From contig JAJYLD010000005.1 of assembly GCA_021788015.1 (NCBI GenBank), positions 349-64,348 on the forward strand: a DNA stretch of 64,000 nt. The letters are read 5' to 3'. Below the pieces are notes generated by a model that was not told where the DNA came from, did no database searches, and saw only the letters and a list, made by a program, of their open reading frames with translations. Source of the DNA: a bacterium. GTDB taxonomy: Bacteria > Patescibacteriota > Patescibacteriia > Patescibacteriales > JAKAJF01. The position numbers and the translations under genes were made by a program. Within the stretch, counting starts at the first letter, position 1. Every line of letters begins with the position of its first letter. This document shows, in pieces, positions 1,604-54,129 of this stretch.

Positions 1604-2361
1604 TAATATTTTTTTAAAATCTCGGAAAGATTTTTAAACCGTTTTGTCGCTTTTATTTCTTCTTCAAAAAATTTTTTCTTTTTCCAAAAAACGCGGTATG
1701 CTTTGGCCTCTTTTTTCGCGGCGACGATTCTAAATTTTTCATCAACGACCTCAAGGGCGGCGGAATTGTCCAAGGCGATCGCGACGCTCGTCGCTTTTTT
1801 CATCATTTCTTTGAGCGATTTTTTTCTGCCTTTTTCCGTATGATAATGGGGGCAGTTTAAAGCGTCGATGAAACCGAGACCGCCGACTTTGATCAATTTG
1901 AATTCGGTTTTTTTATTTGCGAACTTGCGCGAATCGCTATTGCCATATTTGAACCAGCAGATCGAACCCGCGCTCAGGCCCGATAAAACGATTCCTTTTT
2001 TTAAAGCCGTTTTTAAAATTTTGTCGACACCGGTTTTTCGCCAGGCGTTCATCATTTTTAAAGTGTTTCCGCCACCGACGTAAATTATGTCCGCTCCGAA
2101 AATTTTCTTTTTTATTTCCGCTTGCACGGGTTTTTCGCGAATAAGATAAAGGACATCGATCTCGCAGCCGAGCCGTTTTCCAAAATGTTTTTTAACGGTT
2201 TCGACATAACCTTCGGAATCGGAGCTGGCCGTCGGAATAAAAAGCAGCTTGGGATTTTTCTTCCCGCTCAACTTGATGATTTCTTTATCGATTTTTGTTG
2301 TTTCGACAGGAAAGCCCGGTCGGCCGATTTCACCTCCGCCGATAGCGATGATTTTAGGCAT
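1603..2361 (-). CDS. Peptidase S51 / dipeptidase E-like (cyanophycinase family)
   Basis: N-terminal IIAIGGGEIG, GGGNT and LSGLSAGS (nucleophile Ser context) are typical of S51 peptidases. Confidence 0.65.
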   Translation of the reverse strand: MPKIIAIGGGEIGRPGFPVETTKIDKEIIKLSGKKNPKLLFIPTASSDSEGYVETVKKHFGKRLGCEIDVLYLIREKPVQAEIKKKIFGADIIYVGGGNTLKMMNAWRKTGVDKILKTALKKGIVLSGLSAGSICWFKYGNSDSRKFANKKTEFKLIKVGGLGFIDALNCPHYHTEKGRKKSLKEMMKKATSVAIALDNSAALEVVDEKFRIVAAKKEAKAYRVFWKKKKFFEEEIKATKRFKNLSEILKKY

Positions 2362-4063: not shown

Positions 4064-6217
4064 ATGTATATAGTCATTCTTCCTTTATTAAGCGGAATTT
4101 TGGTTTTATATTTGGGCTTTTTTATTTTTTTAAAAAATAAAAGATCAAAACTTAATTTGATTTTTTTATTTTTTTCTTTTGCAACGTTTATTTGGTTTTT
4201 CGGCACCTTCATGATGTTTTTAAGCAAGGACAGTGAGAGGGCTTTATTTTGGGACAAATTTGTTTATATCGGCGTAATTTTTATACCCGTGCTGGTTTAC
4301 GATTTTGGAATGATTTTTATAAATCAGGAGCCCAAAAAGAGAAAAATAATATTTTACGGATATTTTTTTTCAACATTTTTTTTGATTTTGGATTTGTTCT
4401 CCCCATTTTTTATAAACGGTACTTTTAAATATGAATGGGGGTTTCATTCCAGGGCACAACTTTTTCATCACTTTTTTTTATTTTATTTCATTCTTTATCT
4501 GTTTTTGCTTTTTTACGAGCTTTACGTGGCATATAAAAGCAGCATCGGTTTAATAAAGGAACAACTTAAATATCTTTTTGTTGCTCTTCTGTTTTTAACA
4601 ACAGGTTCAATAGCTTTTTTGCCGGCTTACGGGATGGATGTTTATCCTTTCGCGTACATTTCCGGAGTTATTTTTACGGTCATCATGACCTACGCCATCG
4701 TCCGCCACCAGCTTATGGACATAAAATTGGTCATGCGGCGCTCTTCGGTTTATTTGTTCTCTCTCGTTTCCATCATTCTTCCCGCTTACGGCCTTGAAGT
4801 GGCCCTGGGCATCCTCGGTTTTAACAATTCAATTTTGATCGACTCTTCTATTTTAATCGGCAGCATCGCTCTTTTTCCGGTCATGAAAGATTATTATTAC
4901 CGGCTCGCGAATAAATATTTTTTCTCGTCTCTTTACGACACGAAAAAGATCATCTCCGATTTAAGCAATGAGTTGCGCCAAACTCTTTTCGCCTCAAAAA
5001 TTTACGATTTCATTTCCAGCGTTTTAATGAACGCTTTTCACGTCAAAGCGCTGGCGATTTTAACTTATGACAAAAAAAGCGGAAATTACAATCTTAAACA
5101 TGCAATCGGCTTTGACTTCGGCAAAGAAAAATTTATCGTCGAAAACAAGGATATCCAGGAAAAATATTTCAGCGAAAACAAAACCATTATTGTCGAAGAA
5201 TTGAAAATGGAAGCGCGCGAAGAATATAAAGATTTTATAAACAAACTTTTGCATTTAAAAATCGAAGTGTTGACCCCGCTTAATTTAAAAAACGAAACTG
5301 TTGGTGTTATCGTTCTCGGACCGAAAGAATCGGGAGACATGTTCAATGAAGAAGATTTTGAAGTGCTGAGAATCGTCGGAGCCCAAGCCGCCATGGCCCT
5401 GGAAAACGCCTTGCTTTACGAAAAAACGAGAAGATTCAACGTTAAATTGAGAAAGGAAGTGGAAATGGCGACGGCGGACTTAAGAGAGGCGAACGAAAGG
5501 CTGAAAAAGCTGGACGAAGCAAAGAGCGATTTTATTTCCATAGCTTCGCACCAATTGCGCACCCCCTTGACGGCGATCAAGGGTTATATTTCCATGATGC
5601 TCGAGGGTGATTTCGGACCCTTGACCGAAAAAGAAAAACAGGTCTTGGAATTGGTTTTTCGTTCGGCGGAAAGGCTTATCAATTTAGTTGAAGATTTGCT
5701 GAATTTATCCCGCATCGAATCGGGAAGAATGCAATTTGTTTTTTCCGAAATCGATCTTAAAAATATGGTAACGGCGGCGGTAAATCGCATGAAGAACGCG
5801 ACCGAGGCGAAGGGATTGGAATTGGATTTCGAATCTCCTTCCGATTTGCCGAAAGTAAAAATGGACGAAGAGAAAATAAAACAAATTATTTTAAATTTTA
5901 TAGACAACGCAATCAAACACACGGATAGGGGCAAAATTTCAGTCGGCTTGAAAAAGAATGTCGACGGAATCGAATTTTCCGTAGCCGACACGGGAGCGGG
6001 GATAGACCGGAAAGCGTTGCCCGATTTATTCAAAAGGTTCACTCGCAGACCGGGAATTCTTGTCGCCGAAGGGATGGGCCTCAGCCTATATTTGGCCAAA
6101 GAAATTCTAAAGGCTCACCGCGGCCGCGTCTGGGCGGAAAGCGAGGGCGAGGGCAAGGGTAGCGTCTTTCATTTTTTATTGCCTATAGATTTGGAATCAA
6201 ATAAAAAATCTGGATAG
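4064..6217 (+). CDS. Sensor histidine kinase (multi-TM N-terminus, GAF-like, HisKA, HATPase_c)
   Basis: H-box SIASHQLRTPLTAIKGY, N-box NFIDNAIKHT, G-boxes DTGAGI and GMGLSL. About 7 hydrophobic N-terminal segments. Confidence 0.9.
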   Translation: MYIVILPLLSGILVLYLGFFIFLKNKRSKLNLIFLFFSFATFIWFFGTFMMFLSKDSERALFWDKFVYIGVIFIPVLVYDFGMIFINQEPKKRKIIFYGYFFSTFFLILDLFSPFFINGTFKYEWGFHSRAQLFHHFFLFYFILYLFLLFYELYVAYKSSIGLIKEQLKYLFVALLFLTTGSIAFLPAYGMDVYPFAYISGVIFTVIMTYAIVRHQLMDIKLVMRRSSVYLFSLVSIILPAYGLEVALGILGFNNSILIDSSILIGSIALFPVMKDYYYRLANKYFFSSLYDTKKIISDLSNELRQTLFASKIYDFISSVLMNAFHVKALAILTYDKKSGNYNLKHAIGFDFGKEKFIVENKDIQEKYFSENKTIIVEELKMEAREEYKDFINKLLHLKIEVLTPLNLKNETVGVIVLGPKESGDMFNEEDFEVLRIVGAQAAMALENALLYEKTRRFNVKLRKEVEMATADLREANERLKKLDEAKSDFISIASHQLRTPLTAIKGYISMMLEGDFGPLTEKEKQVLELVFRSAERLINLVEDLLNLSRIESGRMQFVFSEIDLKNMVTAAVNRMKNATEAKGLELDFESPSDLPKVKMDEEKIKQIILNFIDNAIKHTDRGKISVGLKKNVDGIEFSVADTGAGIDRKALPDLFKRFTRRPGILVAEGMGLSLYLAKEILKAHRGRVWAESEGEGKGSVFHFLLPIDLESNKKSG

Positions 6218-6307
6218 AAGAGGCAATCTCAAAAATCAAAATTCATATTACACGCAATGTTTATAATTTAATGATTTTTATTGTTCGGTTTATGTTTATC
6301 TAAATTT

Positions 6308-8494
6308 ATGACTTTTTTCGCATTTTCAGCTTTAGTTAACGCTTTGATCAGCTTTTTTCTGGGCTCTTTAGTTTACGCGAGAGGCAAAAATTTCCTGAAT
6401 AAAAGTTTTAGCCAGCTTAACTTTGTTATAGCTTTTTGGAGTTTTGGCTATGTTCTTTGGCAGCTTAGCACTTCACAATATCTCGCTTTGGCTTTATTAA
6501 AGGCCATGATGATTTTTGGTCTCTTGGTCGCGCCCTTTGATTATCTTTTTACCATTTATTTTCTTGGAATCGAGAAAAAGCAAAAAATTTCGATTTATTT
6601 TACATATATCGCTTCCGCGCTGTTTGCTCTAATCGATATTTTCAGTAACGGAATCGTAAACGGAGTGGATAAAAAAATGGAATTTAAATTTTGGCCGAAT
6701 GCCGGCCCGTTGCTTTCAGTCTATTTGGTAATTTTCGCTTTTTGGCTTTTGAATTCTCTGTATTTTTTAATCAGAGAATACAAAAGGACGAAAAGCGGAA
6801 TCAAAAAAGAGCAGCTGAGATATATTTTAATCGGCAGTCTTTTGGGATACGCCGGAGGATCAACCAATTTTTTCCTTTGGTATAATATTCAAATTCCCCC
6901 ATATGGGAATATTTTTATTTCCCTTCTAATCATGATGATGTTTTACGCCGTTTTTACCCATCACATCATTGACATAAAAGTGGCTGCGCGTCGGTATTCG
7001 GTTTATCTTTTTTCTTTGCTCACGATCATTCTGCCGGCCTTGATCGTTAAAATATTTTTAAGCTCTCATTTTCAGAATTCGACTGTTTTAAATATCACCA
7101 TACTCATACTCGGCGTTTCTTTTTTTCCCGCGGTCAAAGATTTCTTCTATAAATTATCCAACAAGTATTTCTTTTCTTCTCTTTACAACCCGAAACAGGT
7201 TATCGCCGAACTTGGAGAAAATTTGAACATGTTTTTGGAAGCCGATAAAATTTATTATTTTATTTCCGACTTGATAATGAATTCTTTTCATTCCAAAGCA
7301 ATCGCTGTTTTGCTTTATGATAACGACAAAGAAACTTATTTTCATATAAAGTATAACAACGGTTTCGATCCGGATAATTTAATAAAAATAAACATTGAAA
7401 AAAATATTAAAAATGAATTTTTAGAAAATAAGATTATTTATTTTGAAGAATTGAGACATAACCATTACGCGGAATTTAAAGAATTTATTCGAAGCGTGAC
7501 TGATCTGGAAATGGCGGCTTTCGTGCCCATAAATTTAAAGAACAAAAGATTGGGCCTGATCGTGCTCGGGCCGAAAGAATCCGGAGATATTTATAACGAA
7601 GACGACGCCGACGTTTTGAAAATTATGAGCTCTCAAACCTCGATAGCTCTTGAAAATGCGTTTCTGTACGAAGAAACGGAAATGTTTAACGTCAAATTAA
7701 AAAAAGAGATAGATATGGCGGTGGCCGATTTAAAGAAAGCCAACGCGAAATTAAAAGAACTTGATGAAGCGAAGAGTGAATTCATTTCCATCGCCTCACA
7801 TCAATTGCGCACGCCTTTGACGGCGATAAAGGGCTATGTTTCAATGATGCTCGAAGGCGATTTTGGCAGGCTGGAACAGAAAAAAGAGGAATCTTTAAAG
7901 AAAGTGTTCGATTCGAATCAGAGATTAATCGGATTGATTGAAGATCTTTTGGACGTCTCTCGCATTGAGTCGGGGAAAATGGAATACAATTTTAAAGAAG
8001 CGCGACTTAACGGCATGGTTTTAAGCGTCATAGACGAGCTTGCAAATTATGCAAAAAATAAAAATTTGAATTTAGAATTTGAAAAACCGAACGAAGGATT
8101 GCCGGAAATAAGAATGGACGAAGAAAAAATCAGGCTGGTGATTATGAATCTGATTGATAATGCCATTAAGTATACGCAAAAAGGATTCGTGCGAGTCAGT
8201 TTAAAAGTAAATAACCCACCCTCCCTTACTAAAGGGGGCACAGTTGAGTTTTGCGTCAGTGATTCAGGGATGGGAGTAAGACCGGAAGATTTACCTAATC
8301 TTTTTCAAAAGTTTACCCGCGGCACCGGTACGTCTCTCGTTCATACCGAAGGCACGGGGCTCGGGCTTTATGTCGCTCGTCAAATGATCGAGGCTCATCA
8401 CGGTCATATTTGGGCGGAAAGCGACGGGGAAGGGAAGGGATCAAGGTTTTGTTTCAGTTTACCAATTAAATATACGGTAAAAGTGCAAAAATAA
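6308..8494 (+). CDS. Sensor histidine kinase, tandem paralog of 4064-6217
   Basis: Same architecture and near-identical H-box SIASHQLRTPLTAIKGY. ATG 6308 preferred over the TTG at 6281. Confidence 0.9.
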   Translation: MTFFAFSALVNALISFFLGSLVYARGKNFLNKSFSQLNFVIAFWSFGYVLWQLSTSQYLALALLKAMMIFGLLVAPFDYLFTIYFLGIEKKQKISIYFTYIASALFALIDIFSNGIVNGVDKKMEFKFWPNAGPLLSVYLVIFAFWLLNSLYFLIREYKRTKSGIKKEQLRYILIGSLLGYAGGSTNFFLWYNIQIPPYGNIFISLLIMMMFYAVFTHHIIDIKVAARRYSVYLFSLLTIILPALIVKIFLSSHFQNSTVLNITILILGVSFFPAVKDFFYKLSNKYFFSSLYNPKQVIAELGENLNMFLEADKIYYFISDLIMNSFHSKAIAVLLYDNDKETYFHIKYNNGFDPDNLIKINIEKNIKNEFLENKIIYFEELRHNHYAEFKEFIRSVTDLEMAAFVPINLKNKRLGLIVLGPKESGDIYNEDDADVLKIMSSQTSIALENAFLYEETEMFNVKLKKEIDMAVADLKKANAKLKELDEAKSEFISIASHQLRTPLTAIKGYVSMMLEGDFGRLEQKKEESLKKVFDSNQRLIGLIEDLLDVSRIESGKMEYNFKEARLNGMVLSVIDELANYAKNKNLNLEFEKPNEGLPEIRMDEEKIRLVIMNLIDNAIKYTQKGFVRVSLKVNNPPSLTKGGTVEFCVSDSGMGVRPEDLPNLFQKFTRGTGTSLVHTEGTGLGLYVARQMIEAHHGHIWAESDGEGKGSRFCFSLPIKYTVKVQK
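8213..8240 (+). repeat. GC-rich palindromic unit (family D) in frame in the kinase HATPase domain
   Basis: aacccaccctcccttactaaagggggcac encodes NPPSLTKGG. This segment is absent from the aligned position of the paralog at 4064-6217 (LKKNVDGIEF versus LKVNNPPSLTKGGTVEF). Confidence 0.6.
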
Positions 8495-11851: not shown

Positions 11852-11979
11852 AAAAAAATTCGGACTTTAAAAGGTCTGAAATTTTGGCCTTTGAAAATAT
11901 AAAATTCATCAGAAAAGAAAAAGGAGGAAAAACGAGAGCAGATTTTTTGAGAGTAAAAAATTTGGAAAAGGAGATGAAG

Positions 11980-14058
11980 ATGGCAGGAAAAACAGCTTTT
12001 CAGAAGATTATCGACGCGCATTGTGTAAAGGTTCTTCCGGCGGACGGAAGAATGGTTCTCAAGCCCGACCGGGTTTGGGGGCATGAGATTACCCCTCCGA
12101 TCGGCATCCTCGACGCGAAAGAGAAAGGGATCGATGTTGTCTTTAATCCAAACAAGATAAAGATGATGATCGATCATGTTAATCCCCCGAAAGATACGGA
12201 TTCAGCCGTACAAAGGAAGATTTGTTATGACTGGTCCGGAGAACATGGAACAGAATTTCTCGATACGGGACGAGGAGGGGTTTGCCACGTTGTTATACCG
12301 GAAAACGGATGGATACTGCCCGGCGAGATCGGTATCATGCCTGACAGCCATACTTGCACGCATGGCGCGTTTTGCGCTTTCACGGCAGGTATAGGTACGA
12401 CAGAGTTCGAAAATGCGTATATCACCGGACTCTGGGTCTGCCCGCCTCAAAAAGTCATTCGCGTCAACTTTACAGGCAAGTTGCCTGCGAACGTTTTCGC
12501 GAAAGATCTTATCCTGGCGCTGATCTCATATATCGGGGTCAGGGGCGCGACCAATGCCGTACTTGAATTTGGCGGCCCGGTTATTGAAGCCATGAGCATG
12601 GAAGCAAGGATGACGATGACTAACATGGCCGTCGAGGCAGGGGCAACCTCAGGGATGATGATGGTCGACAAGAAGACCGTTGCATATCTCAGAGAGGTTT
12701 TAAAAAACTTCTATAATGAGGATGCCCGCGATGACCAGATACTCGCCGACCTCGAAAGATGGAACAGCGACCCGGACGCCGAGTACGGCCAGGTGATTAA
12801 TATAAACGCGACCAACATGGTCCCGATGATCACTTATGGGCACTCTCCTGCCGAGGTTATCAGTACAAAAGGTTTCAACCCCGTCTATAAAACTTACGAA
12901 GGATCGATATTGGTCGGCACGGAGAAGGAGATTATAGAAACAAATATTTTTTCCCTGGAAGAGAAGAAGGTGGATCAGGTGTATATCGGCTCTTGCACGA
13001 ACGGCAGGATCGAAGACTTACGGATCGCGGCCGGCATTTTCGCCGAGACCAAAGGCAGAGTGGCGGATAGCCTCCGCTGCATTGTCGTTCCGGGCAGCCA
13101 GCGCGTTTACAACCAGGCGCTCGATGAAGGGCTTCTAAAAATTTTCGCGGAAGCGGATTGCTTTGTGGCCGGGCCTACCTGCGGCGCTTGTTTAGGCATG
13201 TCCTGCGGAGTGCTCGCTCCCGGAGAAGTCTGCGTTTCGACCACGAACCGTAACTTTCCCGGACGTATGGGCAAGGGCGGAATGGTTCATTTAGCTTCGC
13301 CGGCAACCGCTACTCTAACCGCAATCAAGGGCGCAGTCGTCGAACCGGATCTGGAGCTTTGCGCTTCCGTTCTTAAAAAATACGTGCATCCGTTTCCGTC
13401 GGCAGCGGCGCATCCGACCGGCTGGACCGATCACGAAGTTCCGGTTATCGACTATGCCAAGCTTGCGGCTAAAGTAGCGGAGATGGCGTCGTCATCGATG
13501 GATTTTTCCGGAGAGGTATTTTGTCTTCCGGTAGATAATGTTGACACCGACCAAATCATTCCGGCTCGGTGGTTAAACAAAGTCGAAAAAAAATTTTTCG
13601 GCGAGCATTTACTTGAGGACGCGCCGATTTCTCCGGAGGACAGGCCCAAACTTCAGCGGGTGCGGATACTGGTGGGCGGCGAAAATTTCGGTTGCGGATC
13701 TTCGCGGGAAATGGCGCCTATGGCCTTCGAAGCGGCCGAGATCAGATGCATAATCGCGCCGAGCTTTGCCCGCATCTTCGAGAACAACATGTTCGCGAGG
13801 GGATTGCTCTGTATTACGCTACCGAAAGCTGATACCGATGAGTTGATGAGAAAAAGACCTGATAGTTTGGGAGTTGATCTCAATGGAGATGGAAATAAAG
13901 GATATGTATGTTGGGCAGAAAACGCAGCAGGAATCTGCGTGTCTCAGGTATATGAATTCAACATTTCCGATTACCAGAAAGAGCTCATCCGCAAAGGCGG
14001 CAGTACGGGCGTAATGCTCGAGCTCGCGGCCGAGCTGCAGAAGGAAGGCAAACTGTAA
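11980..14058 (+). CDS. leuCD: Fused 3-isopropylmalate/citramalate dehydratase large+small subunit (aconitase family LeuC-LeuD fusion)
   Basis: N-terminal part has DSHTCTHGA and GSCTNGRIEDL. C-terminal part has DNVDTDQIIPA and GENFGCGSSRE (LeuD swivel). AAGGAG sits 6 nt before ATG 11980; ATG 11974 is also possible. Confidence 0.8.
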   Translation: MAGKTAFQKIIDAHCVKVLPADGRMVLKPDRVWGHEITPPIGILDAKEKGIDVVFNPNKIKMMIDHVNPPKDTDSAVQRKICYDWSGEHGTEFLDTGRGGVCHVVIPENGWILPGEIGIMPDSHTCTHGAFCAFTAGIGTTEFENAYITGLWVCPPQKVIRVNFTGKLPANVFAKDLILALISYIGVRGATNAVLEFGGPVIEAMSMEARMTMTNMAVEAGATSGMMMVDKKTVAYLREVLKNFYNEDARDDQILADLERWNSDPDAEYGQVININATNMVPMITYGHSPAEVISTKGFNPVYKTYEGSILVGTEKEIIETNIFSLEEKKVDQVYIGSCTNGRIEDLRIAAGIFAETKGRVADSLRCIVVPGSQRVYNQALDEGLLKIFAEADCFVAGPTCGACLGMSCGVLAPGEVCVSTTNRNFPGRMGKGGMVHLASPATATLTAIKGAVVEPDLELCASVLKKYVHPFPSAAAHPTGWTDHEVPVIDYAKLAAKVAEMASSSMDFSGEVFCLPVDNVDTDQIIPARWLNKVEKKFFGEHLLEDAPISPEDRPKLQRVRILVGGENFGCGSSREMAPMAFEAAEIRCIIAPSFARIFENNMFARGLLCITLPKADTDELMRKRPDSLGVDLNGDGNKGYVCWAENAAGICVSQVYEFNISDYQKELIRKGGSTGVMLELAAELQKEGKL

Positions 14059-14114
14059 AAATCACAAAAGGCCGTTTCGAGAGAGGCGGTCCAAAAAAAC
14101 ATGGAGGGCAGAGA

Positions 14115-15197
14115 ATGAACATTGCCGTGATCGAAGGAGACGGGACAGGACCGGAAGTCATAGCGGAAGCAAAAAAAGTAATGGAAGCTGCTTGTGAATC
14201 CAGTTCGGAAGGCAGGCTGGAATTTTTCCATTACGATCTGGGTGGAGCGAGGTATCTTAAAACCGGCGAGCTTTTGCCGGAAAGTGTTTTGCAGGAACTG
14301 AAAGAGTATGACGCCATTCTTCTCGGCGCAATCGGGCATCCGGACGTAAAGCCGGGTATTCTCGAAAAAGGTATACTGCTCGCAATCCGGTTTGGATTGG
14401 ACCAGTACATAAACCTGCGGCCGGTCAAGTTATACCCCGGCGTATATTGCCCGCTTAAAGACAAGGGGCCGGACGACATTGATTTCATAATCATCCGCGA
14501 GAACACGGGTGGCATCTATACGGGCCATGGCGGCGTAACGCATAAAGGTGAACCCGATGAAGTCGCCACTCAGGAAATGATTTATACGCGTCCCATGGTG
14601 GACCGCTGTCTTGAGTTTGCCTTCAGCCTGAAAGAGGACCGTAATAAAGAGAACCCCGCATGTTCTCAGAAACCCCTGCATCTCGTGCACAAGACAAATG
14701 TCCTGACCAACTGTGGTGACCTCTGGAATAGGGCGTTTGAAACCATGGGGGCAGACCTTTACCCTTCGGTCTGGCGCGTCTACGCCCATGTGGACGCGAC
14801 CACGATGTGGATGATAAAAAACCCGGAATGGTTCGACGTGATCGTGACCGAGAATCTTTTTGGAGACATCATTACCGATCTCGGCGCTATGATCCAGGGC
14901 GGCATGGGAATCGCCGCCGGTGGAAATATTAACCCGGGAGGCATTTCGATGTTCGAACCGATCGGGGGATCGGCGCCTAAGTATGCTGGCCAGAACATTA
15001 TTAATCCTTTGGCCGCCATTTGTGCTGGCGCGATGCTGCTCAGATATTCCGGCGCGGAGGTTGATACCGAAGCGGCCGATCGCATCGAGGCCGCAGTGAA
15101 AAAAGCGCTCGGCGAAGGCTATATAAGAAGCCTTGCCGCCGGGCAGATGGGAATGTCGACTTCCGAGGTTGGCGATCTCGTTTCCAAGTTCGTTTAA
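14115..15197 (+). CDS. leuB: 3-isopropylmalate dehydrogenase family (LeuB-like beta-decarboxylating dehydrogenase)
   Basis: IAVIEGDGTGPEV, NLRPVK, IIRENTGGIYTG, NLFGDIITDLGA and GSAP motifs. Confidence 0.8.
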   Translation: MNIAVIEGDGTGPEVIAEAKKVMEAACESSSEGRLEFFHYDLGGARYLKTGELLPESVLQELKEYDAILLGAIGHPDVKPGILEKGILLAIRFGLDQYINLRPVKLYPGVYCPLKDKGPDDIDFIIIRENTGGIYTGHGGVTHKGEPDEVATQEMIYTRPMVDRCLEFAFSLKEDRNKENPACSQKPLHLVHKTNVLTNCGDLWNRAFETMGADLYPSVWRVYAHVDATTMWMIKNPEWFDVIVTENLFGDIITDLGAMIQGGMGIAAGGNINPGGISMFEPIGGSAPKYAGQNIINPLAAICAGAMLLRYSGAEVDTEAADRIEAAVKKALGEGYIRSLAAGQMGMSTSEVGDLVSKFV

Positions 15198-48648: not shown

Positions 48649-48721
48649 TTTATTTCAAAGCGCGAAAATTATTTCGATTATTGAGATCATCATTATTGAT
48701 GACCATTTTTGCGCGCTTTGA
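48644..48721 (+). promoter_or_regulatory. Ile-rich leader peptide ORF (25 codons, 8 Ile)
   Basis: MNLFQSAKIISIIEIIIIDDHFCAL. The stop lies inside the candidate antiterminator strand 48714-48726. Confidence 0.7.
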
Positions 48722-48747
48722 AGACGAAAACATAAAAATAAAAGGAG

Positions 48748-48775
48748 CCGTCTTCGAAGCGAGAAGACGGTTTTT
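48748..48775 (+). terminator. Attenuator terminator upstream of cimA
   Basis: CCGTCTTC gaagcga GAAGACGG plus TTTTT. The 5' arm can alternatively pair 13 bp with 48714-48726. Confidence 0.75.
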
Positions 48776-48824
48776 GTATGGATCTTTCAAAACAAAATCG
48801 TTAGAAGATAAAGGAGAACATGAG

Positions 48825-50396
48825 ATGACCGAAATTTATGACACGACTCTTAGGGACGGGGCGCAGACTGAAAATATTTCTTTTTCAGTCCGGGATAAAC
48901 TGAAAATCGCTTGGCGTCTTAAGGAATTCGGCATTCCTTTTGTCGAAGGCGGTTGGCCGAGCGCGAATCCGAAAGACACGGAATTTTTCCAAAAAGCGGT
49001 CGCAACGGATTTAAAAGATGTTTTAGTCGCGTTTGGGAGCACTTTTCATCCGAAGTCGAGAAACGCCGGCGACGACAAGGGGTTGAAAGCTTTGATTCTG
49101 AGTGGAGCGAAGGCGGTTGCAATTTTCGGAAAGACATGGGATTTTCACGTCAGCGACGCTTTGAGAATACCGCTTGAGGAAAATCTTAGAATCATTTTCG
49201 AGTCGGTGAAGTTTTTAAAAAGCCGGCTTGAAAAAGTTTTCTTCGACGCCGAGCATTTCTTCGATGGCTATAAAGCGAATCCGGGATATGCGCTGGAATG
49301 TCTCAAGGCCGCGGAACGGGCGGGAGCGGACACGATCATTCTTTGCGATACCAACGGCGGCGCCCTTCCGGCTGAAGTCGAATCCGTTTTTCGAGACATA
49401 AAGAGAGTCGGCGTTTCGGTCGCTTTGGGCATTCACGCCCATAACGACTGCGAGTTGGCGGTTGCCAATTCTTTGGCCGCGGTAAAAGCCGGCGCCATCC
49501 AGGTGCAAGGCACCATCAACGGTCTCGGAGAAAGGTGCGGTAACGCGAATCTCGTTTCGATAATCCCCACGCTTGAACTCAAACTCGGTGAAAAATGCCT
49601 GCCGCCCGAGAAATTGAACGAACTTCGCGAAACCTCCCTTTTTATAAGTGAAGTTGCCAATGTCGCGCATTCAAAAAGGCAAGCTTATGTCGGTGACAGC
49701 GCCTTTGCGCATAAGGCGGGAATGCATGTAAGCGCGGTGAATCGCAACCCCGAAACTTACGAGCATATTAATCCCGCTTCGGTCGGCAACAAGCGCAGAA
49801 TACTCGTCTCGGATTTATCCGGTAGAAGCAATATCTTGCGCAAGGCCGGAGAAATCGGGATGAAATTGGAGGAAAAATCTCCGCGCGTGCAAGCGATTCT
49901 CGATGAAATCAAGTCGCTGGAAAACCAGGGTTACGCGTTTGAGGCGGCGGACGCTTCTTTCGAGCTTTTGGTCAAAAAAGCGTTTGGCTTTTATCAACCT
50001 TTCTTCGAACTCGTCAGCTCCAGGATCGTTAATTCAAAGAACGGCGGACTTTCCCGGAATGAAGCGACAGTAATGCTTCGAGTCGGGGAGCGCGAGGAGC
50101 ATACCGCCGGAAAAGGAGACGGCCCTATCAATGCCGTTGACGAGGCGTTAAGAAAAGCTCTCGAACGTTATTACCCGATTCTCAAAAAGGTCAGACTCGT
50201 AGACTATAAAGTCACCGTGCTTTCCGAAATTGAAGGCACGTCGGCAAAGGTTCGAGTTTTGATAGAATCGGAAAGCGACGGAGAAAGATGGACCACAATC
50301 GGCGTTTCCACCGATGTCATCGAAGCGTCCCGCCAGGCCTTGATCGACGGAATAGAATATTTTCTTCTTAAAAAAGATGTGAAAGCCCTAATTTAA
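48825..50396 (+). CDS. cimA: Citramalate synthase-like (LeuA/CimA family with C-terminal regulatory domain)
   Basis: IYDTTLRDGAQTENISFSVRDKL.IA..L.EFG..FVEGGWPSANPKD.EFF matches the CimA-type N-terminus as recalled. AAGGAG 8 nt before ATG 48825. Confidence 0.65.
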   Translation: MTEIYDTTLRDGAQTENISFSVRDKLKIAWRLKEFGIPFVEGGWPSANPKDTEFFQKAVATDLKDVLVAFGSTFHPKSRNAGDDKGLKALILSGAKAVAIFGKTWDFHVSDALRIPLEENLRIIFESVKFLKSRLEKVFFDAEHFFDGYKANPGYALECLKAAERAGADTIILCDTNGGALPAEVESVFRDIKRVGVSVALGIHAHNDCELAVANSLAAVKAGAIQVQGTINGLGERCGNANLVSIIPTLELKLGEKCLPPEKLNELRETSLFISEVANVAHSKRQAYVGDSAFAHKAGMHVSAVNRNPETYEHINPASVGNKRRILVSDLSGRSNILRKAGEIGMKLEEKSPRVQAILDEIKSLENQGYAFEAADASFELLVKKAFGFYQPFFELVSSRIVNSKNGGLSRNEATVMLRVGEREEHTAGKGDGPINAVDEALRKALERYYPILKKVRLVDYKVTVLSEIEGTSAKVRVLIESESDGERWTTIGVSTDVIEASRQALIDGIEYFLLKKDVKALI

Positions 50397-50418
50397 TTAG
50401 GGCTTGTTTTTTTTCGCA
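50383..50418 (+). terminator. Terminator after cimA
   Basis: AAGCCCTAATT ta ATTAGGGCTT plus T-run. The stop codon lies inside the stem. Confidence 0.75.
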
Positions 50419-50440
50419 AGTATGATACAATGTGGTCATT

Positions 50441-50521
50441 ATGAGACAAGCCGCACAAAATTTACTACTCGCTTTGTTGCTTTTATCGCCTCGTCGGGTG
50501 GCTTGTTTTCATGCGTTTTAA
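50441..50521 (+). promoter_or_regulatory. Leu-rich leader peptide ORF (26 codons, 7 Leu)
   Basis: MRQAAQNLLLALLLLSPRRVACFHAF, using TTA CTA CTC .. TTG TTG CTT TTA. Confidence 0.65.
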
Positions 50522-50548
50522 GAAAATAGATAAAAATAAAACAGCAAG

Positions 50549-50570
50549 ACCGCCCCAAAAGGCGGTTTTT
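50549..50570 (+). terminator. Attenuator terminator upstream of leuA
   Basis: ACCGCC ccaaaa GGCGGT plus TTTT, 48 nt before ATG 50618. Confidence 0.65.
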
Positions 50571-50617
50571 AAATTGTATAGACCTTTTGAAATTTGAAAA
50601 TTGACAAGGAGGGCGCG

Positions 50618-52225
50618 ATGAATAATTTGATTTTGAACGACGTATCTTTGCGGGAGTCCGGTCAGGTCGAGGGAGGAATGATGAATCCCTCGGATCAAAT
50701 TCGGTATGTTCAGTATCTGCTCGAAGGAGGAATAAATCGAATAGAGATCGGTTTTCCGGGAAGTTCGGAAGAGCAGAAAAGGCAGTGCCAAAGAATAGCG
50801 GAACATGTTCACAAATGGGATGGTACAAAACCGAATCTTTCCGGATTGGCCAGGGCGCACAAAAATGACATCCTGGCGGTCAAAGAAGCGGGCTGCGATA
50901 TGTGCCATATTTACATTCCGGCAAGCGACGAGTTGATGTTGGCCCAATTTCACGCGGAGAAATACGGAACCACAAAAGACGAGAAGCGGAAGCGCATCAC
51001 CGAGACTGCAAAAGAGGCGATCGTTTTTGCCAAATCTCTCGGATTCGCCCATATCGAATATTCTCCGGAAGACGCGGCAAGGGCCGGCAAAGAATTTTTA
51101 AGCTTTCTAGTCCAAGAAGTCGTTGAAGTGGGAGCGGATATCGTAAACATTCCGGACACCACGGGGCTGCGTATCGGCTCGGAATTCGGCGACCTCATCG
51201 CCTATCTCTTCGCCAATGTGGCCGACATAAACAGATCCACGATTTCGGTCCATTGCCATAATGATAGCGATCACTCGACCCATAACGCTCTTCAAGCCGT
51301 TCTGGCGGGAGCAAGACAAGTCGAAGGAGCCTTTTACGGACTGGGAGAACGCAGTGGAATGACAAAATTCGAAGCCCTGCTGATGAACATAAACACAAGA
51401 AGAGATATTTTTAAAAACGTTGAAACAGATTTCGACAAAAGTGTTTGCGTTAAGATCGTCAATTTCGTGGGGCAAGTCTTGGGCATGCCGGTTCCCAGAC
51501 ATTGGGTTGTGGCGGGATCCCAGAATGGCATTGTCAGTTCTGGAACGCATCAGGCGATCGAAGCGCGGGCGGAAGAGCAGGGAAAGGAAAGTCCGTATTA
51601 CAGCTGGAACCCCGGTGAGTACGGGCACAAAGGGGTCGAAGTGGTCGTAACTCAATCTTCGGGTAAGGCCGGTTTGAAAAAAAGACTCGAAAAACTTGGC
51701 TATAATGTTTCCGATATTCAACTCGCAAAAATAAGCGAGCGAGTAAAACAAATTTCGGAAGCAAAATCCGGCACGGCTCTCAAAGATGTCGAGCTTACCG
51801 CCATCGTCCAAGAAGCGATAACGGAAATTCCTTTCCCCATTATGATTAAAAGATGCCAAACCACGGGTGGAAAAGGAACGATCCCGAGCGCGACGGTTGT
51901 TCTCGAAGCGGACAGTCGAATATTTACCGATATCGCCACCGGAGACGGACCTTTCGACGCCGTTATGAAGGCGGTGAAAAGCGCGATCGGAAAAGCGTAT
52001 CCGGAAGTTAAAGAAGCGCAAATTTCTCTTGTCCATTGGCACGCCTCTGCGTTAACTCCGGGCACTAATGCGGTAGCCGACGCTTACGCCCAGATCAAGG
52101 TTGTAAACGGAGGAGATCGAATTTTCTCCGGGAAAGGCGCCGATCCCGACACTATTCAGGCTTCGGCGCAAGCCTTCGCCAATTGTTTCAGTTGGTATCT
52201 GGCCTCCATCAATCAAGCGGATTAA
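50618..52225 (+). CDS. leuA: 2-isopropylmalate synthase-like (LeuA family)
   Basis: DVSLRESGQ (DRE-TIM), HCHNDSDH, C-terminal LeuA dimer/regulatory-like domain. AAGGAGGG SD. Confidence 0.6.
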   Translation: MNNLILNDVSLRESGQVEGGMMNPSDQIRYVQYLLEGGINRIEIGFPGSSEEQKRQCQRIAEHVHKWDGTKPNLSGLARAHKNDILAVKEAGCDMCHIYIPASDELMLAQFHAEKYGTTKDEKRKRITETAKEAIVFAKSLGFAHIEYSPEDAARAGKEFLSFLVQEVVEVGADIVNIPDTTGLRIGSEFGDLIAYLFANVADINRSTISVHCHNDSDHSTHNALQAVLAGARQVEGAFYGLGERSGMTKFEALLMNINTRRDIFKNVETDFDKSVCVKIVNFVGQVLGMPVPRHWVVAGSQNGIVSSGTHQAIEARAEEQGKESPYYSWNPGEYGHKGVEVVVTQSSGKAGLKKRLEKLGYNVSDIQLAKISERVKQISEAKSGTALKDVELTAIVQEAITEIPFPIMIKRCQTTGGKGTIPSATVVLEADSRIFTDIATGDGPFDAVMKAVKSAIGKAYPEVKEAQISLVHWHASALTPGTNAVADAYAQIKVVNGGDRIFSGKGADPDTIQASAQAFANCFSWYLASINQAD

Positions 52226-53302: not shown

Positions 53303-53476
53303 ATGACGGTAAGAACAGTTAAAGTCAGGGACGAGTTAACCGGACAGAAGGTAGTGGCCAGTATTGAAGAAGTGGGCGGAAGGAGACTTTTGGTTCTGCC
53401 CGGACTTAGGAAAGTGGAACAGCCATTTCCTCCGAAAGAGGAGCCAGCTAAACCGGAAGACGAGCCAAGCAACTAG
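53303..53476 (+). CDS. 57-aa protein (hypothetical)
   Basis: AAAGGAGGG SD 4 nt before the ATG. Terminator GGCAAGCaaaaacaGCTTGCC plus T-run at 53476-53506. Confidence 0.5.
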   Translation: MTVRTVKVRDELTGQKVVASIEEVGGRRLLVLPGLRKVEQPFPPKEEPAKPEDEPSN

Positions 53477-53517
53477 GCAAGCAAAAACAGCTTGCCTTTT
53501 TTATTTGCGGAGCACGA

Positions 53518-53546
53518 TTGCAATTTATGAAATAAAAATGTAAGAT
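53518..53546 (+). promoter_or_regulatory. Promoter-like TTGCAA-17-TAAGAT upstream of the tRNA locus
   Basis: -35 at 53518-23, -10 at 53541-46, about 35 nt before 53582. Confidence 0.4.
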
Positions 53547-53581
53547 ATGTCTAGATATTTTAATTTAAAATCGAATAATTT

Positions 53582-53762
53582 CGGAGTATAGTATAAGTGG
53601 CAGTACGCGCCCGCTTGCTCCGTTACTCAATTACCGGGGTGTAGTATAACGGTAGTACGCGAGCATGGGGTGCTTGTAGCCGGGGTTCAATTCCCCGCAC
53701 CCCGAAAGATGAGTAACGGGGTGAAGGCGGGGGTAGTTCCGGTTCGATTCCGGATACTCCGA
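53582..53762 (+). ncRNA. tRNA-shaped outer gene whose anticodon arm is replaced by a long helix carrying an embedded tRNA-Pro
   Basis: Acceptor CGGAGTA/TACTCCG plus A73. D arm GTAT-AAGTGGCA-GTAC. T arm TCCGG-TTCGATT-CCGGA. Helix CCGTTACTCA (53620-29)/TGAGTAACGG (53710-19) is extendable to about 15 bp and stacks on CCCGC/GCGGG. No 7-nt anticodon loop. Confidence 0.5.
53635..53705 (+). tRNA. tRNA-Pro (anticodon GGG), CCA not encoded
   Basis: Manual cloverleaf: CGGGGTG TA GTAT AACGGTA GTAC G CGAGC AT-GGG-GT GCTTG TAGC CGGGG TTCAATT CCCCG CACCCCG A. C1:G72, A73 and G37 fit Pro identity. Confidence 0.85.
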
Positions 53763-54129
53763 CAATTAGTATATGGTATTTTTATGTTTTAGAAAGTTTA
53801 AAAGGTAAAAATTTTTATAAAGGCTATTCTGATAATTTAAAAAGACATTTTTTCGATGTCCTTGAAAGAAAGGATAAAATGCTCTTCCCGGCGCGTACAT
53901 GCGTTATCTGGTCGCGAAAATGGATATAAAAACTTTCCTCGCCTTAAATGACAACCCCAGTTTAATTTTAGATAAAAATCTATTGATTGCTTTTCTGAAA
54001 TGGGAAAGTTTAAGAAATGGACTGAATCGCTGGCAAGGGGGGATAAAAATAGACTTCGGATAATTCAGGGGTTTTTATTTCGTTAAAAAGTGCTAAAATA
54101 AAAATAGGTTTTAAAACAAGGAGGGAAAT

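What the first reader, a model, noticed from the sequence alone, without database searches (positions are those of the whole stretch)
53582..53762. A complete tRNA-Pro(GGG) nested inside the anticodon arm of a second tRNA-shaped gene
53635-53705 folds by hand into a canonical tRNA-Pro with C1:G72, A73, G37 and anticodon GGG. It is flanked by CCGTTACTCA (53620-29) and TGAGTAACGG (53710-19), which are exact complements. That helix extends with G-U pairs to about 15 bp (53615-29/53710-24). Across a 2-nt bulge it stacks on CCCGC (53610-14)/GCGGG (53727-31). Outside that lie a normal D arm (GTAT-AAGTGGCA-GTAC, nearly identical to the inner tRNA), a normal T arm (TCCGG-TTCGATT-CCGGA) and a 7-bp acceptor stem CGGAGTA/TACTCCG plus A73, again with the Pro-like C1:G72. 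So the outer molecule has every tRNA part except an anticodon loop, which is replaced by a long helix capped by another tRNA. RNase P and RNase Z processing of the inner tRNA would leave two outer halves held together by about 22+7 bp. That geometry recalls split-tRNA systems, or a tRNA gene disrupted by a tRNA-carrying insert with 10-bp terminal inverted repeats. I could not derive a clean 7-nt anticodon loop by deleting the insert; possible anticodons after various excisions include GCU, GCA and UGA.
Basis: seen in the sequence. Interest (0 to 1): 0.75.

Follow-up and report, generated by a model that had tools for sequence, protein, structure and literature searches.

The report
tRNA-Pro gene nested inside tRNA-like gene
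A working proline tRNA gene really does sit inside the anticodon arm of a second proline-tRNA-like gene that has no anticodon, in an uncultured Patescibacteria genome; it is most likely a recombination scar at a tRNA gene that mobile elements often target, not a new split-tRNA system.

Summary
ARAGORN and Rfam call only the inner tRNA-Pro(GGG) (53635-53705). The minimum-energy fold of 53582-53762 is exactly the nested structure (z = -5.7). Once the insert is deleted in silico, ARAGORN calls the outer frame 53582-53762 as a tRNA. No deletion gives a unique anticodon.

The host is a Patescibacteria (CPR) MAG, and two assemblies agree on the sequence. The nearest available relatives (leuA paralogue at most 61% identical) carry plain, uninterrupted tRNA-Pro(GGG) genes, so the nest is lineage-specific. 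The outer gene is a diverged tRNA-Pro(GGG)-family paralogue with five fully compensated stem pairs.

Other CPR contigs show independent mosaics of whole and partial tRNA-Pro(GGG) copies. One is a second nested case, and it lies next to a large serine recombinase. In 10 of 10 loci examined, that recombinase family abuts a tRNA-Pro gene.

Best reading (about 0.6): a resident tRNA-Pro gene was split in its anticodon loop by DNA carrying a replacement tRNA-Pro. The inner tRNA is made from the resident promoter and released by RNase P and RNase Z. The outer halves are a by-product. A selected "natural tRNA scaffold" is not excluded (about 0.2). Split-tRNA, intron and tmRNA readings fail their defining tests.

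The parts
53475..53497 (+). Intrinsic-terminator-like hairpin plus T-run that closes the upstream small ORF, so the tRNA locus is a separate transcription unit
   Evidence: 8-bp stem, 5 GC pairs, tail TTTTTATTTG
53552..53592 (+). AT-rich promoter-like region just upstream of, and overlapping, the outer 5' end (consensus matches only). A TTGCAA-17-TAAGAT pair at 53518-53546 was seen by eye.
   Evidence: three 9/12 matches; sequence. The start site has not been determined.
53582..53614 (+). Outer tRNA-like 5' half: acceptor strand CGGAGTA (53582-88), U8 A9, D arm GTAT-AAGTGGCA-GTAC (53591-53606), G26, and the 5' strand of the anticodon-stem-like helix CGCCCGC (53608-14)
   Evidence: 82% identical to inner nt 1-27. 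The covariance-model match at 53582-53623 (13.5 bits) includes this half.
53615..53629 (+). Left arm of the connecting helix (TTGCTCCGTTACTCA). It contains TGCTCCG, which resembles the outer-type 3' acceptor strand TACTCCG.
53630..53634 (+). Leader of the inner tRNA (ATTAC); the minimum-energy fold pairs 53631-32 with 53707-08, the centroid leaves it unpaired. RNase P would cut at 53634/53635 (inferred).
53635..53705 (+). Inner canonical tRNA-Pro(GGG), 71 nt, no encoded CCA
53706..53709 (+). Trailer of the inner tRNA (AAGA); the minimum-energy fold pairs 53707-08 with 53631-32, the centroid leaves it unpaired. RNase Z-type cleavage would fall after A73 (inferred).
53710..53726 (+). Right arm of the connecting helix (TGAGTAACGGGGTGAAG) with a 2-nt bulge at 53723-24. 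It contains CGGGGTG, identical to the inner 5' acceptor strand.
   Evidence: (repeat D5)
53727..53762 (+). Outer tRNA-like 3' half: stem strand GCGGGGG (53727-33), variable loop TAGT (53734-37), T arm TCCGG-TTCGATT-CCGGA (53738-54), acceptor strand TACTCCG (53755-61), A73 (53762), no CCA
   Evidence: The covariance-model match at 53717-53762 scores 27.4 bits, E = 1.7e-6. This is the only copy in the window.

Best explanation
The locus is a mosaic of tRNA-Pro-derived DNA produced by recombination. A resident tRNA-Pro(GGG)-family gene (the outer frame) was interrupted in its anticodon loop by a short segment bounded by inverted repeats. That segment carries a complete tRNA-Pro(GGG), the inner gene.

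Shown:
- Both layers are real.
- They are paralogues of one family.
- They lie in one terminator-bounded intergenic unit with no separate promoter room for the inner gene.
- The outer gene cannot form an anticodon loop.

Inferred:
- The whole unit of about 181 nt or more is transcribed from the resident promoter.
- RNase P cuts at 53634/53635 and an RNase Z-type activity cuts after 53705. The CCA-adding enzyme then finishes the inner tRNA, which is the only decoder.
- The outer 5' and 3' halves remain base-paired (about 22 + 7 bp) as a non-decoding by-product.
- The inverted-repeat arms are most simply the half-sites or ends of whatever inserted. The rest of that element has since been deleted, leaving only the indispensable replacement tRNA.

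For: 1. Relatives lack the nest. The closest leuA-paralogue relative (61% identity, L015) has a plain tRNA-Pro(GGG)+CCA with a downstream terminator-like hairpin. L009 and L007 also have an un-nested copy downstream of the leuA paralogue.

2. The outer gene belongs to the tRNA-Pro(GGG) family. It has the unusual D arm GUAU/GUAC seen in the inner gene and in the seven aligned tRNA-Pro(GGG) genes, except L012. It also shares the 4-nt variable loop UAGN with most of them, together with C1:G72 and A73.

3. No anticodon can be recovered. ARAGORN assigns a different anticodon at every in-silico excision boundary.

4. There are independent mosaics at tRNA-Pro(GGG) in other CPR contigs.
- L013/L014: a 5' copy (nt 1-36 or 1-56, 100% identical to the inner tRNA), a structured spacer, an intact tRNA flanked by a 16-bp inverted repeat, then a decayed 3' copy (nt 40-71).
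- L012: an intact tRNA plus a 3' fragment.
- L007: an intact tRNA plus a degenerate second copy.
- The junctions fall at different tRNA positions, as expected of separate events and not of one conserved RNA design.

5. A large serine recombinase lies next to the L013/L014 nest. Its family has 5949 hits at E < 1e-40. In 10 of 10 loci examined it lies tail-to-tail against a tRNA-Pro gene; wherever the recombinase end is on the contig, its reading frame overlaps that gene. So tRNA-Pro genes are recombination hot spots in these bacteria.

6. The covariance model independently sees tRNA-Pro acceptor-strand-like pieces inside both helix arms, which marks the arms as tRNA-derived DNA.

7. There is a published precedent for an element that disrupts a host tRNA gene and carries a replacement: PMC10865867. 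A precedent for mobile elements disrupting tRNA genes is PMC3293823.
Against: - The window holds no recombinase, integrase or transposase. About 40 ORFs were scanned and tblastn with the recombinase was negative. There is no remnant of that element's 157-nt repeats.
- There is no target-site duplication, and no second copy of the arms exists in 64 kb.
- The outer gene shows no decay. Every stem pairs perfectly and the tertiary-contact nucleotides are intact (U8, A14, G18 G19, T-loop TTCGATT, A15:U48). A long-dead gene would not look like this.
- All three non-Watson-Crick pairs in the 20-bp helix are G-U and none is A-C. The sense strand folds 20 kcal/mol better than the antisense strand. This hints at selection on the RNA.
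- No close relative exists that would show the uninterrupted ancestral gene.
Confidence: 0.6

Rival explanations
1. Selected architecture, a natural 'tRNA scaffold'. The outer tRNA-like fold and the long helix are maintained because they help make the inner tRNA. The outer fold would give a nuclease-resistant precursor with tRNA-like ends trimmed by RNase P and RNase Z. The helix of about 22 bp could be an RNase III entry site or a folding clamp. The paired outer halves might have a role of their own, for example as a decoy for tRNA-binding enzymes.
For: - The outer stems are all perfect. Five pairs differ from the inner tRNA on both sides (acceptor pairs 4-69 and 7-66; T-stem pairs 49-65, 50-64 and 51-63) and none is broken.
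- The helix has 3 G-U pairs and no A-C pair.
- The fold is strongly strand-specific and has a strong z-score.
- An intact tRNA flanked by a helix inside tRNA-like halves recurs in L013/L014.
Against: - The architecture is not conserved in any relative available.
- In L013/L014 the outer 3' part is decaying, with T-stem and acceptor mismatches and an A-C mismatch in the helix.
- Junction positions differ between lineages.
- The compensated pairs could all date from when the outer gene was an ordinary tRNA.
Confidence: 0.2
2. Tandem origin. Three head-to-tail tRNA-Pro copies, of which the first lost nt ~34-65 and the third lost nt ~10-38. The nested fold is then only the most stable way these leftovers pair around the intact middle copy.
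For: The covariance-model search splits the locus into exactly these units: 53582-53623 (acceptor 5' strand + D arm + TGCTCCG, 13.5 bits), 53635-53705 (98.3 bits) and 53717-53762 (CGGGGTG + variable loop + T arm + acceptor 3' strand, 27.4 bits). L007 and L012 show an intact copy followed by a partial copy in tandem.
Against: - It needs two precisely complementary internal deletions.
- The two 11-nt spacers are mutually complementary (TTACTCA/TGAGTAA), not direct repeats as a tandem array would give.
- The outer 5' strand pairs perfectly (7 Watson-Crick pairs) with the far 3' strand, better than with the near one.
Confidence: 0.1
3. True intron or split tRNA. The insert is removed at the RNA level (archaeal-type endonuclease plus RtcB, or ligation after RNase P/Z cuts) to give a functional outer tRNA.
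For: In L014 the upstream partial copy ends exactly after G37, the canonical 37/38 intron position. Patescibacteria are rich in group I tRNA introns (PMC13011429).
Against: - There is no bulge-helix-bulge motif, only a single 2-nt bulge.
- There is no group I or group II intron signal in Rfam, even at E <= 10, and the insert is only about 112 nt, of which 71 are the tRNA.
- No excision boundary gives a canonical 7-nt loop with U33 and a purine at 37 for one consistent anticodon.
- Ligating the RNase P/Z products would leave a 9-nt loop on a stem of about 22 bp.
Confidence: 0.03
4. Assembly artefact: a chimeric join of reads from two tRNA-Pro genes.
For: Metagenome assemblies can mis-join repeats. 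L013 and L014 differ by a 20-nt block inside a repeated segment.
Against: The sequence is identical in an NCBI MAG contig of 77 kb and in a separately assembled Logan contig. The outer and inner genes are only about 66-82% identical, too different to collapse. The junctions are unique sequence.
Confidence: 0.03

Closest known systems
tRNA-dependent lysogeny (Guerrero-Bustamante & Hatfull 2024, PMC10865867)
   Same: [quoted passage not shown] Here the disrupted outer gene and the intact inner gene are both tRNA-Pro(GGG)-type.
   Different: In that system the element is a whole prophage with a tyrosine integrase, and its tRNA lies elsewhere in the phage. Here only about 112 nt lie between the two halves, no integrase is present in the window, and the replacement tRNA sits directly inside the split gene and is co-transcribed with it.
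Genomic islands at tRNA genes with leftover partial tRNA copies, and the tRNA-gene disruption model for Caldiarchaeum (Sugahara et al. 2012, PMC3293823)
   Same: Partial tRNA copies flank an intact one. A recombinase gene is adjacent in the analogous CPR loci.
   Different: Classical integration leaves a 3' fragment kilobases away. Here a 5' part and a 3' part of one gene directly enclose the intact gene and fold with it into one RNA.
Engineered tRNA scaffolds for recombinant RNA (Ponchon & Dardel; cited from my own knowledge)
   Same: The topology is identical: a cargo RNA replaces the anticodon loop of a tRNA whose acceptor, D and T arms are kept.
   Different: The scaffold is man-made. Here the cargo is itself a tRNA and would be cut out by RNase P and RNase Z.
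Archaeal split, tri-split and intron-containing tRNAs
   Same: The two halves of a tRNA body are held together by a long helix at the anticodon side.
   Different: In archaea the halves are separate genes or are joined through bulge-helix-bulge splicing, and they yield a decoding tRNA. Here there is one transcript, no such motif and no anticodon.
Group I introns in Patescibacteria tRNA genes (PMC13011429)
   Same: Same phylum, and an insertion in the anticodon-loop region of a tRNA gene that standard tools miss.
   Different: There is no ribozyme core, the insert is far too short, and there is no Rfam intron hit.

Membership tests
Canonical bacterial tRNA-Pro (inner gene) | Cloverleaf with 7-nt anticodon loop, U33, anticodon NGG, G37, C1:G72, A73 | tested here: met
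   ARAGORN; Rfam 58.6 bits against a threshold of 29; clade-specific model 98.3 bits
Canonical tRNA (outer gene) | Acceptor, D and T arms with conserved tertiary-contact nucleotides | tested here: met
   Acceptor 7/7, D stem 4/4, T stem 5/5 pairs; G18 G19; T-loop TTCGATT. ARAGORN calls the frame in 407 of 504 in-silico excisions.
Canonical tRNA (outer gene) | 5-bp anticodon stem closed by a 7-nt loop carrying an anticodon | tested here: not met
   The loop is replaced by a helix of about 20 bp plus the inner tRNA. The anticodon call changes with every excision boundary.
Archaeal-type tRNA intron | Bulge-helix-bulge motif (two 3-nt bulges separated by 4 bp) at the exon-intron borders | tested here: not met
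   There is a single 2-nt bulge (53723-24) and no second bulge.
Archaeal-type tRNA intron | Splicing endonuclease (EndA) and RtcB ligase encoded in the genome | not tested
   Only 64-77 kb of the genome is available. None of the roughly 40 ORFs scanned is such an enzyme.
Group I / group II intron in tRNA | Ribozyme core detectable by covariance model; length of 200 nt or more | tested here: not met
   No intron family in Rfam at gathering threshold or at E <= 10. The insert is about 112 nt.
Split tRNA (Nanoarchaeum type) | Halves encoded as separate genes, each with its own promoter, joined in trans | tested here: not met
   Both halves lie 112 nt apart on one strand between one terminator-bounded promoter region and one T-rich end.
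tmRNA / tRNA-like domain | G3:U70 alanine identity, tag reading frame, pseudoknots | tested here: not met
   The outer gene has G3:C70. ARAGORN finds no tmRNA, and the Rfam tmRNA matches score 9.5-20 bits against thresholds of 47-84.
Element-borne replacement tRNA at a disrupted tRNA gene (tRNA-dependent-lysogeny logic) | [quoted passage not shown] | tested here: met
   The outer gene is interrupted and has no anticodon. The inner gene is an intact tRNA-Pro(GGG) of the same family.
Element-borne replacement tRNA at a disrupted tRNA gene (tRNA-dependent-lysogeny logic) | Integrase and the rest of the element present between the attachment junctions | tested here: not met
   No recombinase in the window. 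One is present only in the analogous loci L013/L014.
Miniature inverted-repeat transposable element (MITE) | Terminal inverted repeats plus a target-site duplication plus multiple genomic copies | tested here: inconclusive
   Inverted repeats are present. No direct repeat flanks them, and there is no other copy in 64 kb. The rest of the genome was not available.

The most novel reading that the evidence does not exclude
The unit [inverted repeat - tRNA-Pro(GGG) - inverted repeat] is a tiny non-autonomous cassette. It is moved in trans by a site-specific recombinase into the palindromic anticodon stem-loop of resident tRNA-Pro genes and carries its own replacement tRNA, so that insertion is harmless. 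Alternatively, or in addition, the resulting tRNA-in-tRNA transcript is a selected, self-scaffolded precursor. Either case would be a previously undescribed kind of tRNA gene organisation in bacteria.
Probability: 0.15. Interest if true: 0.8.

Novelty: new variant of a known kind. Interest (0 to 1): 0.45.

Why it matters
A complete tRNA lodged in the anticodon arm of an otherwise intact tRNA frame appears not to have been described. Full-text searches for 'nested tRNA' and similar phrases found nothing relevant.

If it is a scar, it is an unusually clean snapshot of how mobile DNA can split a tRNA gene while supplying a substitute. That bears on long-standing ideas about how split and intron-containing tRNAs arise. 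It also warns annotators that tRNA finders silently drop the outer layer.

If it is selected, it would be a natural counterpart of the engineered tRNA scaffold and a new kind of precursor for RNase P and RNase Z.

The work also surfaced a very abundant recombinase element that targets tRNA-Pro and is bracketed by 157-nt inverted repeats.

Tried and rejected
- Exact 26-mer of the outer 5' half in genome contigs and viral contigs: no match. The species is not among the representative genomes.
- blastn of 8 kb around the locus against phage records: no match.
- Viral collection scans with an inner-tRNA pattern and with the recombinase protein: nothing.
- ARAGORN with intron options on the native sequence: only the inner tRNA is reported.
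- Rfam at E <= 10 on 53400-53950: apart from the tRNA, only sub-threshold chance matches (mir-3960, mascRNA, SpF41, permuted tmRNA). No Y-RNA-like, intron or ribozyme family.
- Search for recombinase remnants or its 157-nt repeats around the locus: none.
- Similarity of the inner trailer AAGATGAGTAA to the recombinase-element end CCAGATGAGACA of L019 (a shared 7-mer): suggestive at most, and not used as evidence.
- A 9-nt duplicate of the tRNA start 66 nt upstream in L021 (E = 0.24) and an inverted D-arm-like piece at 53885-53910: both at chance level.
- Reconstructing a recombination core dinucleotide, or the ancestral anticodon loop of the outer gene, from the junction sequences: no unique solution.
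- A search for closer relatives through the leuA paralogue: the best non-self hit is 61% identical, so conservation of the outer layer could not be tested.

Full report
**1. The observation**

ARAGORN finds one tRNA in the 64-kb window, tRNA-Pro(GGG) at 53635-53705. Rfam's tRNA model scores it 58.6 bits against a threshold of 29, and no other Rfam family reaches threshold anywhere in the window.

RNAfold of the 181 nt returns the nested structure as the minimum-energy fold: -86.5 kcal/mol, against -62.2 ± 4.3 for shuffles, z = -5.67. Listing the pairs gives:
- a 7-bp all-Watson-Crick outer acceptor stem (the minimum-energy fold adds an eighth pair, 53589-53754);
- a 4-bp D stem;
- a connecting helix of 20 pairs (53610-29 with 53710-31; 17 Watson-Crick and 3 G-U; 2-nt bulge at 53723-24), plus two further pairs beyond a G-G mismatch;
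- single-stranded spacers ATTAC and AAGA in the centroid fold (the minimum-energy fold adds two pairs, 53631-32 with 53707-08);
- the inner cloverleaf;
- the outer T arm TCCGG-TTCGATT-CCGGA (by sequence; the fold draws four of its five pairs).

The 10-mer CCGTTACTCA and its complement occur perfectly only here in the window.

ARAGORN, even with intron options, reports only the inner gene. I then removed the insert in silico at 504 combinations of boundaries. It called a tRNA with exactly the frame 53582-53762 in 407 of them, with an anticodon that changed with every boundary. So the outer acceptor, D and T frame is of tRNA quality, but there is no recoverable anticodon loop.

The locus is identical in an NCBI MAG contig (GCA_027328865.1, 77 kb) and in a separately assembled Logan contig. 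An assembler-specific artefact is therefore unlikely.

**2. Context**

The window is a bacterial chromosome segment. It encodes GyrA, UvrB, UvrC, FtsK, IleRS, aconitase, isocitrate/isopropylmalate dehydrogenase, two LeuA-like genes and others.

The relatives found through the second LeuA paralogue are Patescibacteria (CPR) MAGs. The best non-self homologue in 5.8 billion proteins is only 61% identical, so no close relative is available.

The tRNA locus lies in an intergenic stretch. A terminator-like hairpin at 53475-97 closes the upstream small ORF, and AT-rich promoter-like matches lie just upstream of, and overlapping, the outer 5' end. The 5-nt spacer before the inner gene leaves no room for a separate promoter. 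Both layers are therefore most likely one transcript; this is an inference.

None of the roughly 40 ORFs scanned is a recombinase, integrase or transposase.

**3. What the outer gene is**

It shares the unusual D arm GUAU...GUAC with the inner gene and with the collected tRNA-Pro(GGG) genes, except L012. It also shares the 4-nt variable loop UAGN with most of them, together with C1:G72 and A73. A tRNA-Pro(CGG) from a relative has a different D arm.

The outer gene is 82% identical to the inner gene over nt 1-27. By my count it is about 66% identical over the variable loop, T arm and 3' acceptor strand.

Five stem pairs differ from the inner gene on both sides and none is broken: acceptor pairs 4-69 and 7-66, and T-stem pairs 49-65, 50-64 and 51-63. 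The outer gene therefore evolved for some time as a structured tRNA. It is not a fresh copy of the inner one.

**4. Relatives and analogues**

Three relatives carry a plain tRNA-Pro(GGG) downstream of the leuA paralogue:
- L015, the closest, also encodes CCA and has a downstream terminator-like hairpin.
- L009 has a plain copy.
- L007 has a plain copy followed by a degenerate second copy with a hairpin inserted in its T-loop.

I scanned the metagenome collection for the inner tRNA's 3' end followed within 20-50 nt by a second T-loop. This returned three contigs.
- L012 has an intact gene followed 29 nt later by a decayed 3' fragment.
- L013 and L014 are the same locus and hold a second nested case. 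It consists of a 5' copy (nt 1-36 in L014, 1-56 in L013, 100% identical to the inner gene), two hairpins, a 16-bp inverted repeat enclosing an intact tRNA-Pro(GGG), and then a 3' copy (nt 40-71, 91% identical) with T-stem and acceptor mismatches.

The helix arms in that nest are unrelated in sequence to those in the window, and the junctions sit at different tRNA positions. These look like separate events of one kind, not one conserved RNA.

**5. A recombinase that targets tRNA-Pro**

The ORF next to the L013 nest is a large serine recombinase, with Resolvase, Recombinase and zinc-ribbon domains. Its family is very large and well conserved: 5949 hits at E < 1e-40, and the 120 best listed clusters are at least 69% identical.

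In all ten loci examined (L009, L013, L014, L018-L024) it lies tail-to-tail against a tRNA-Pro gene with anticodon GGG, CGG or UGG. Wherever the end of the recombinase gene is on the contig, its reading frame overlaps that tRNA gene. tRNA-Pro genes are thus habitual recombination sites in these and other bacteria.

The window itself has no trace of this recombinase or of its repeats. The link to the window is by analogy only.

**6. A second way to read the locus**

I built a covariance model from seven tRNA-Pro(GGG) genes. It finds three units in the window:
- the inner gene, 98.3 bits;
- 53717-53762, 27.4 bits: CGGGGTG in the right arm, then the variable loop, T arm and 3' acceptor strand;
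- 53582-53623, 13.5 bits: 5' acceptor strand, D arm, then TGCTCCG in the left arm.

The helix arms therefore contain sequences that resemble tRNA-Pro acceptor strands.

This allows a tandem-of-three origin with two complementary internal deletions. That route is less economical than a single insertion. It also does not explain why the two 11-nt spacers are complementary (TTACTCA/TGAGTAA) when a tandem array would give direct repeats.

**7. Mechanism**

Best-supported reading: a resident tRNA-Pro gene was split in its anticodon loop by DNA bounded by inverted repeats that carried a replacement tRNA-Pro. The rest of that DNA, if there was any, has since been lost.

The following steps are inferred:
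- The unit is transcribed from the resident promoter.
- RNase P and an RNase Z-type activity release the inner tRNA. No CCA is encoded, so the CCA-adding enzyme is required.
- The outer halves remain as a paired by-product that cannot decode.

The logic has an experimental precedent in tRNA-dependent lysogeny (PMC10865867). The idea that mobile elements split tRNA genes was proposed for an archaeon (PMC3293823).

**8. What does not fit**

The outer gene is undamaged. All three non-canonical pairs in the long helix are G-U, never A-C. The sense strand folds about 20 kcal/mol better than the antisense strand.

Either the event is recent or the fold is under selection. I give the selected 'natural scaffold' reading about 0.2.

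Intron, split-tRNA, tmRNA and MITE readings fail, or cannot be shown to meet, their defining features.

**9. Verdict**

The structure is real and unusual, and I found no description of it in the literature. It is most probably a new variant of a known process: recombination at tRNA genes with supply of a replacement tRNA.

Interest is moderate. It would rise sharply if RNA data showed stable outer halves, or if a systematic scan found many such nests with covariation.

Noticed in passing
L019 5709-5864 / 7372-7527; also L020, L022, L023; L013/L014 downstream of the tRNA locus: The recombinase gene next to tRNA-Pro is bracketed by near-perfect inverted repeats of about 157 nt. The outer end of the tRNA-side repeat begins exactly at CGACCA, the end of tRNA-Pro plus CCA. 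The inner ends stop at a conserved GGCGGCGGTTCG. By the coordinates, the last ~50 codons of the recombinase lie inside the repeat, so the protein would be completed the same way in either orientation. L013 and L014, otherwise identical, diverge exactly at that inner end, as if they were the two inversion states of a ~1.5-kb segment.
   Followed up: partly
Proteins P0050-P0169; loci L018-L024: This recombinase family is extremely abundant and conserved: 5949 hits at E < 1e-40, many on contigs of only 1.8-5 kb. The sources name Patescibacteria, Omnitrophota, Acidobacteria and Elusimicrobia. In L019 and L020 it sits beside restriction-modification and HTH genes. The predicted protein length varies (408-581 aa among the listed clusters), apparently because the ORF runs on, antisense, through the tRNA-Pro gene.
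   Followed up: partly
L007 16073-16187: Directly after an intact tRNA-Pro(GGG) lies a degenerate second copy. It has an anticodon-arm-like hairpin whose loop reads CUGUGGG, a long extra arm, and a 19-nt hairpin inserted inside the T-loop (GGTTC-tccgccagaggcggacagg-AATTCC). A terminator follows.
   Followed up: partly
L013 7437-7456 vs L014 2530-2549: The two otherwise identical contigs differ by one 20-nt block inside the upstream partial tRNA copy. L013 continues the tRNA sequence up to the T-loop, while L014 has a hairpin GTTGAGGTCGAAGACCTCAA. This is either gene conversion between the nested copies or an assembly path difference.
   Followed up: no
window 53885-53910 (- strand): A short inverted match to the D-arm region of the tRNA-Pro genes (ATAACG...GTACGCGCC; a 9-nt exact match plus 13/16). 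It lies about 130 nt downstream of the nest, at the start of a 54-codon ORF. Statistically it is near chance level.
   Followed up: partly
window 11884-15197 and 48681-52225: This Patescibacteria contig encodes an aconitase-family protein, an isocitrate/isopropylmalate dehydrogenase and two adjacent LeuA-like (HMGL + LeuA_dimer) paralogues. That is more central and amino-acid metabolism than is usual for this reduced-genome phylum. The 12-16 kb stretch is also richer in G+C (49-52%) than the rest (about 36-48%).
   Followed up: no
window 4064-8494: Two adjacent paralogous histidine kinases, each with an N-terminal 7TM domain, a GAF domain, and HisKA and HATPase domains.
   Followed up: no
L021 1856-1864 vs 1776-1784 (- strand): The first 9 nt of the tRNA-Pro(GGG) gene (CGGGCTGTA) are repeated 72 nt upstream (start to start), next to the promoter-like region, with 63 nt (GC-rich near the tRNA) in between. 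It looks like a 9-bp target duplication around a small insert, but the match alone is not significant (E = 0.24).
   Followed up: no
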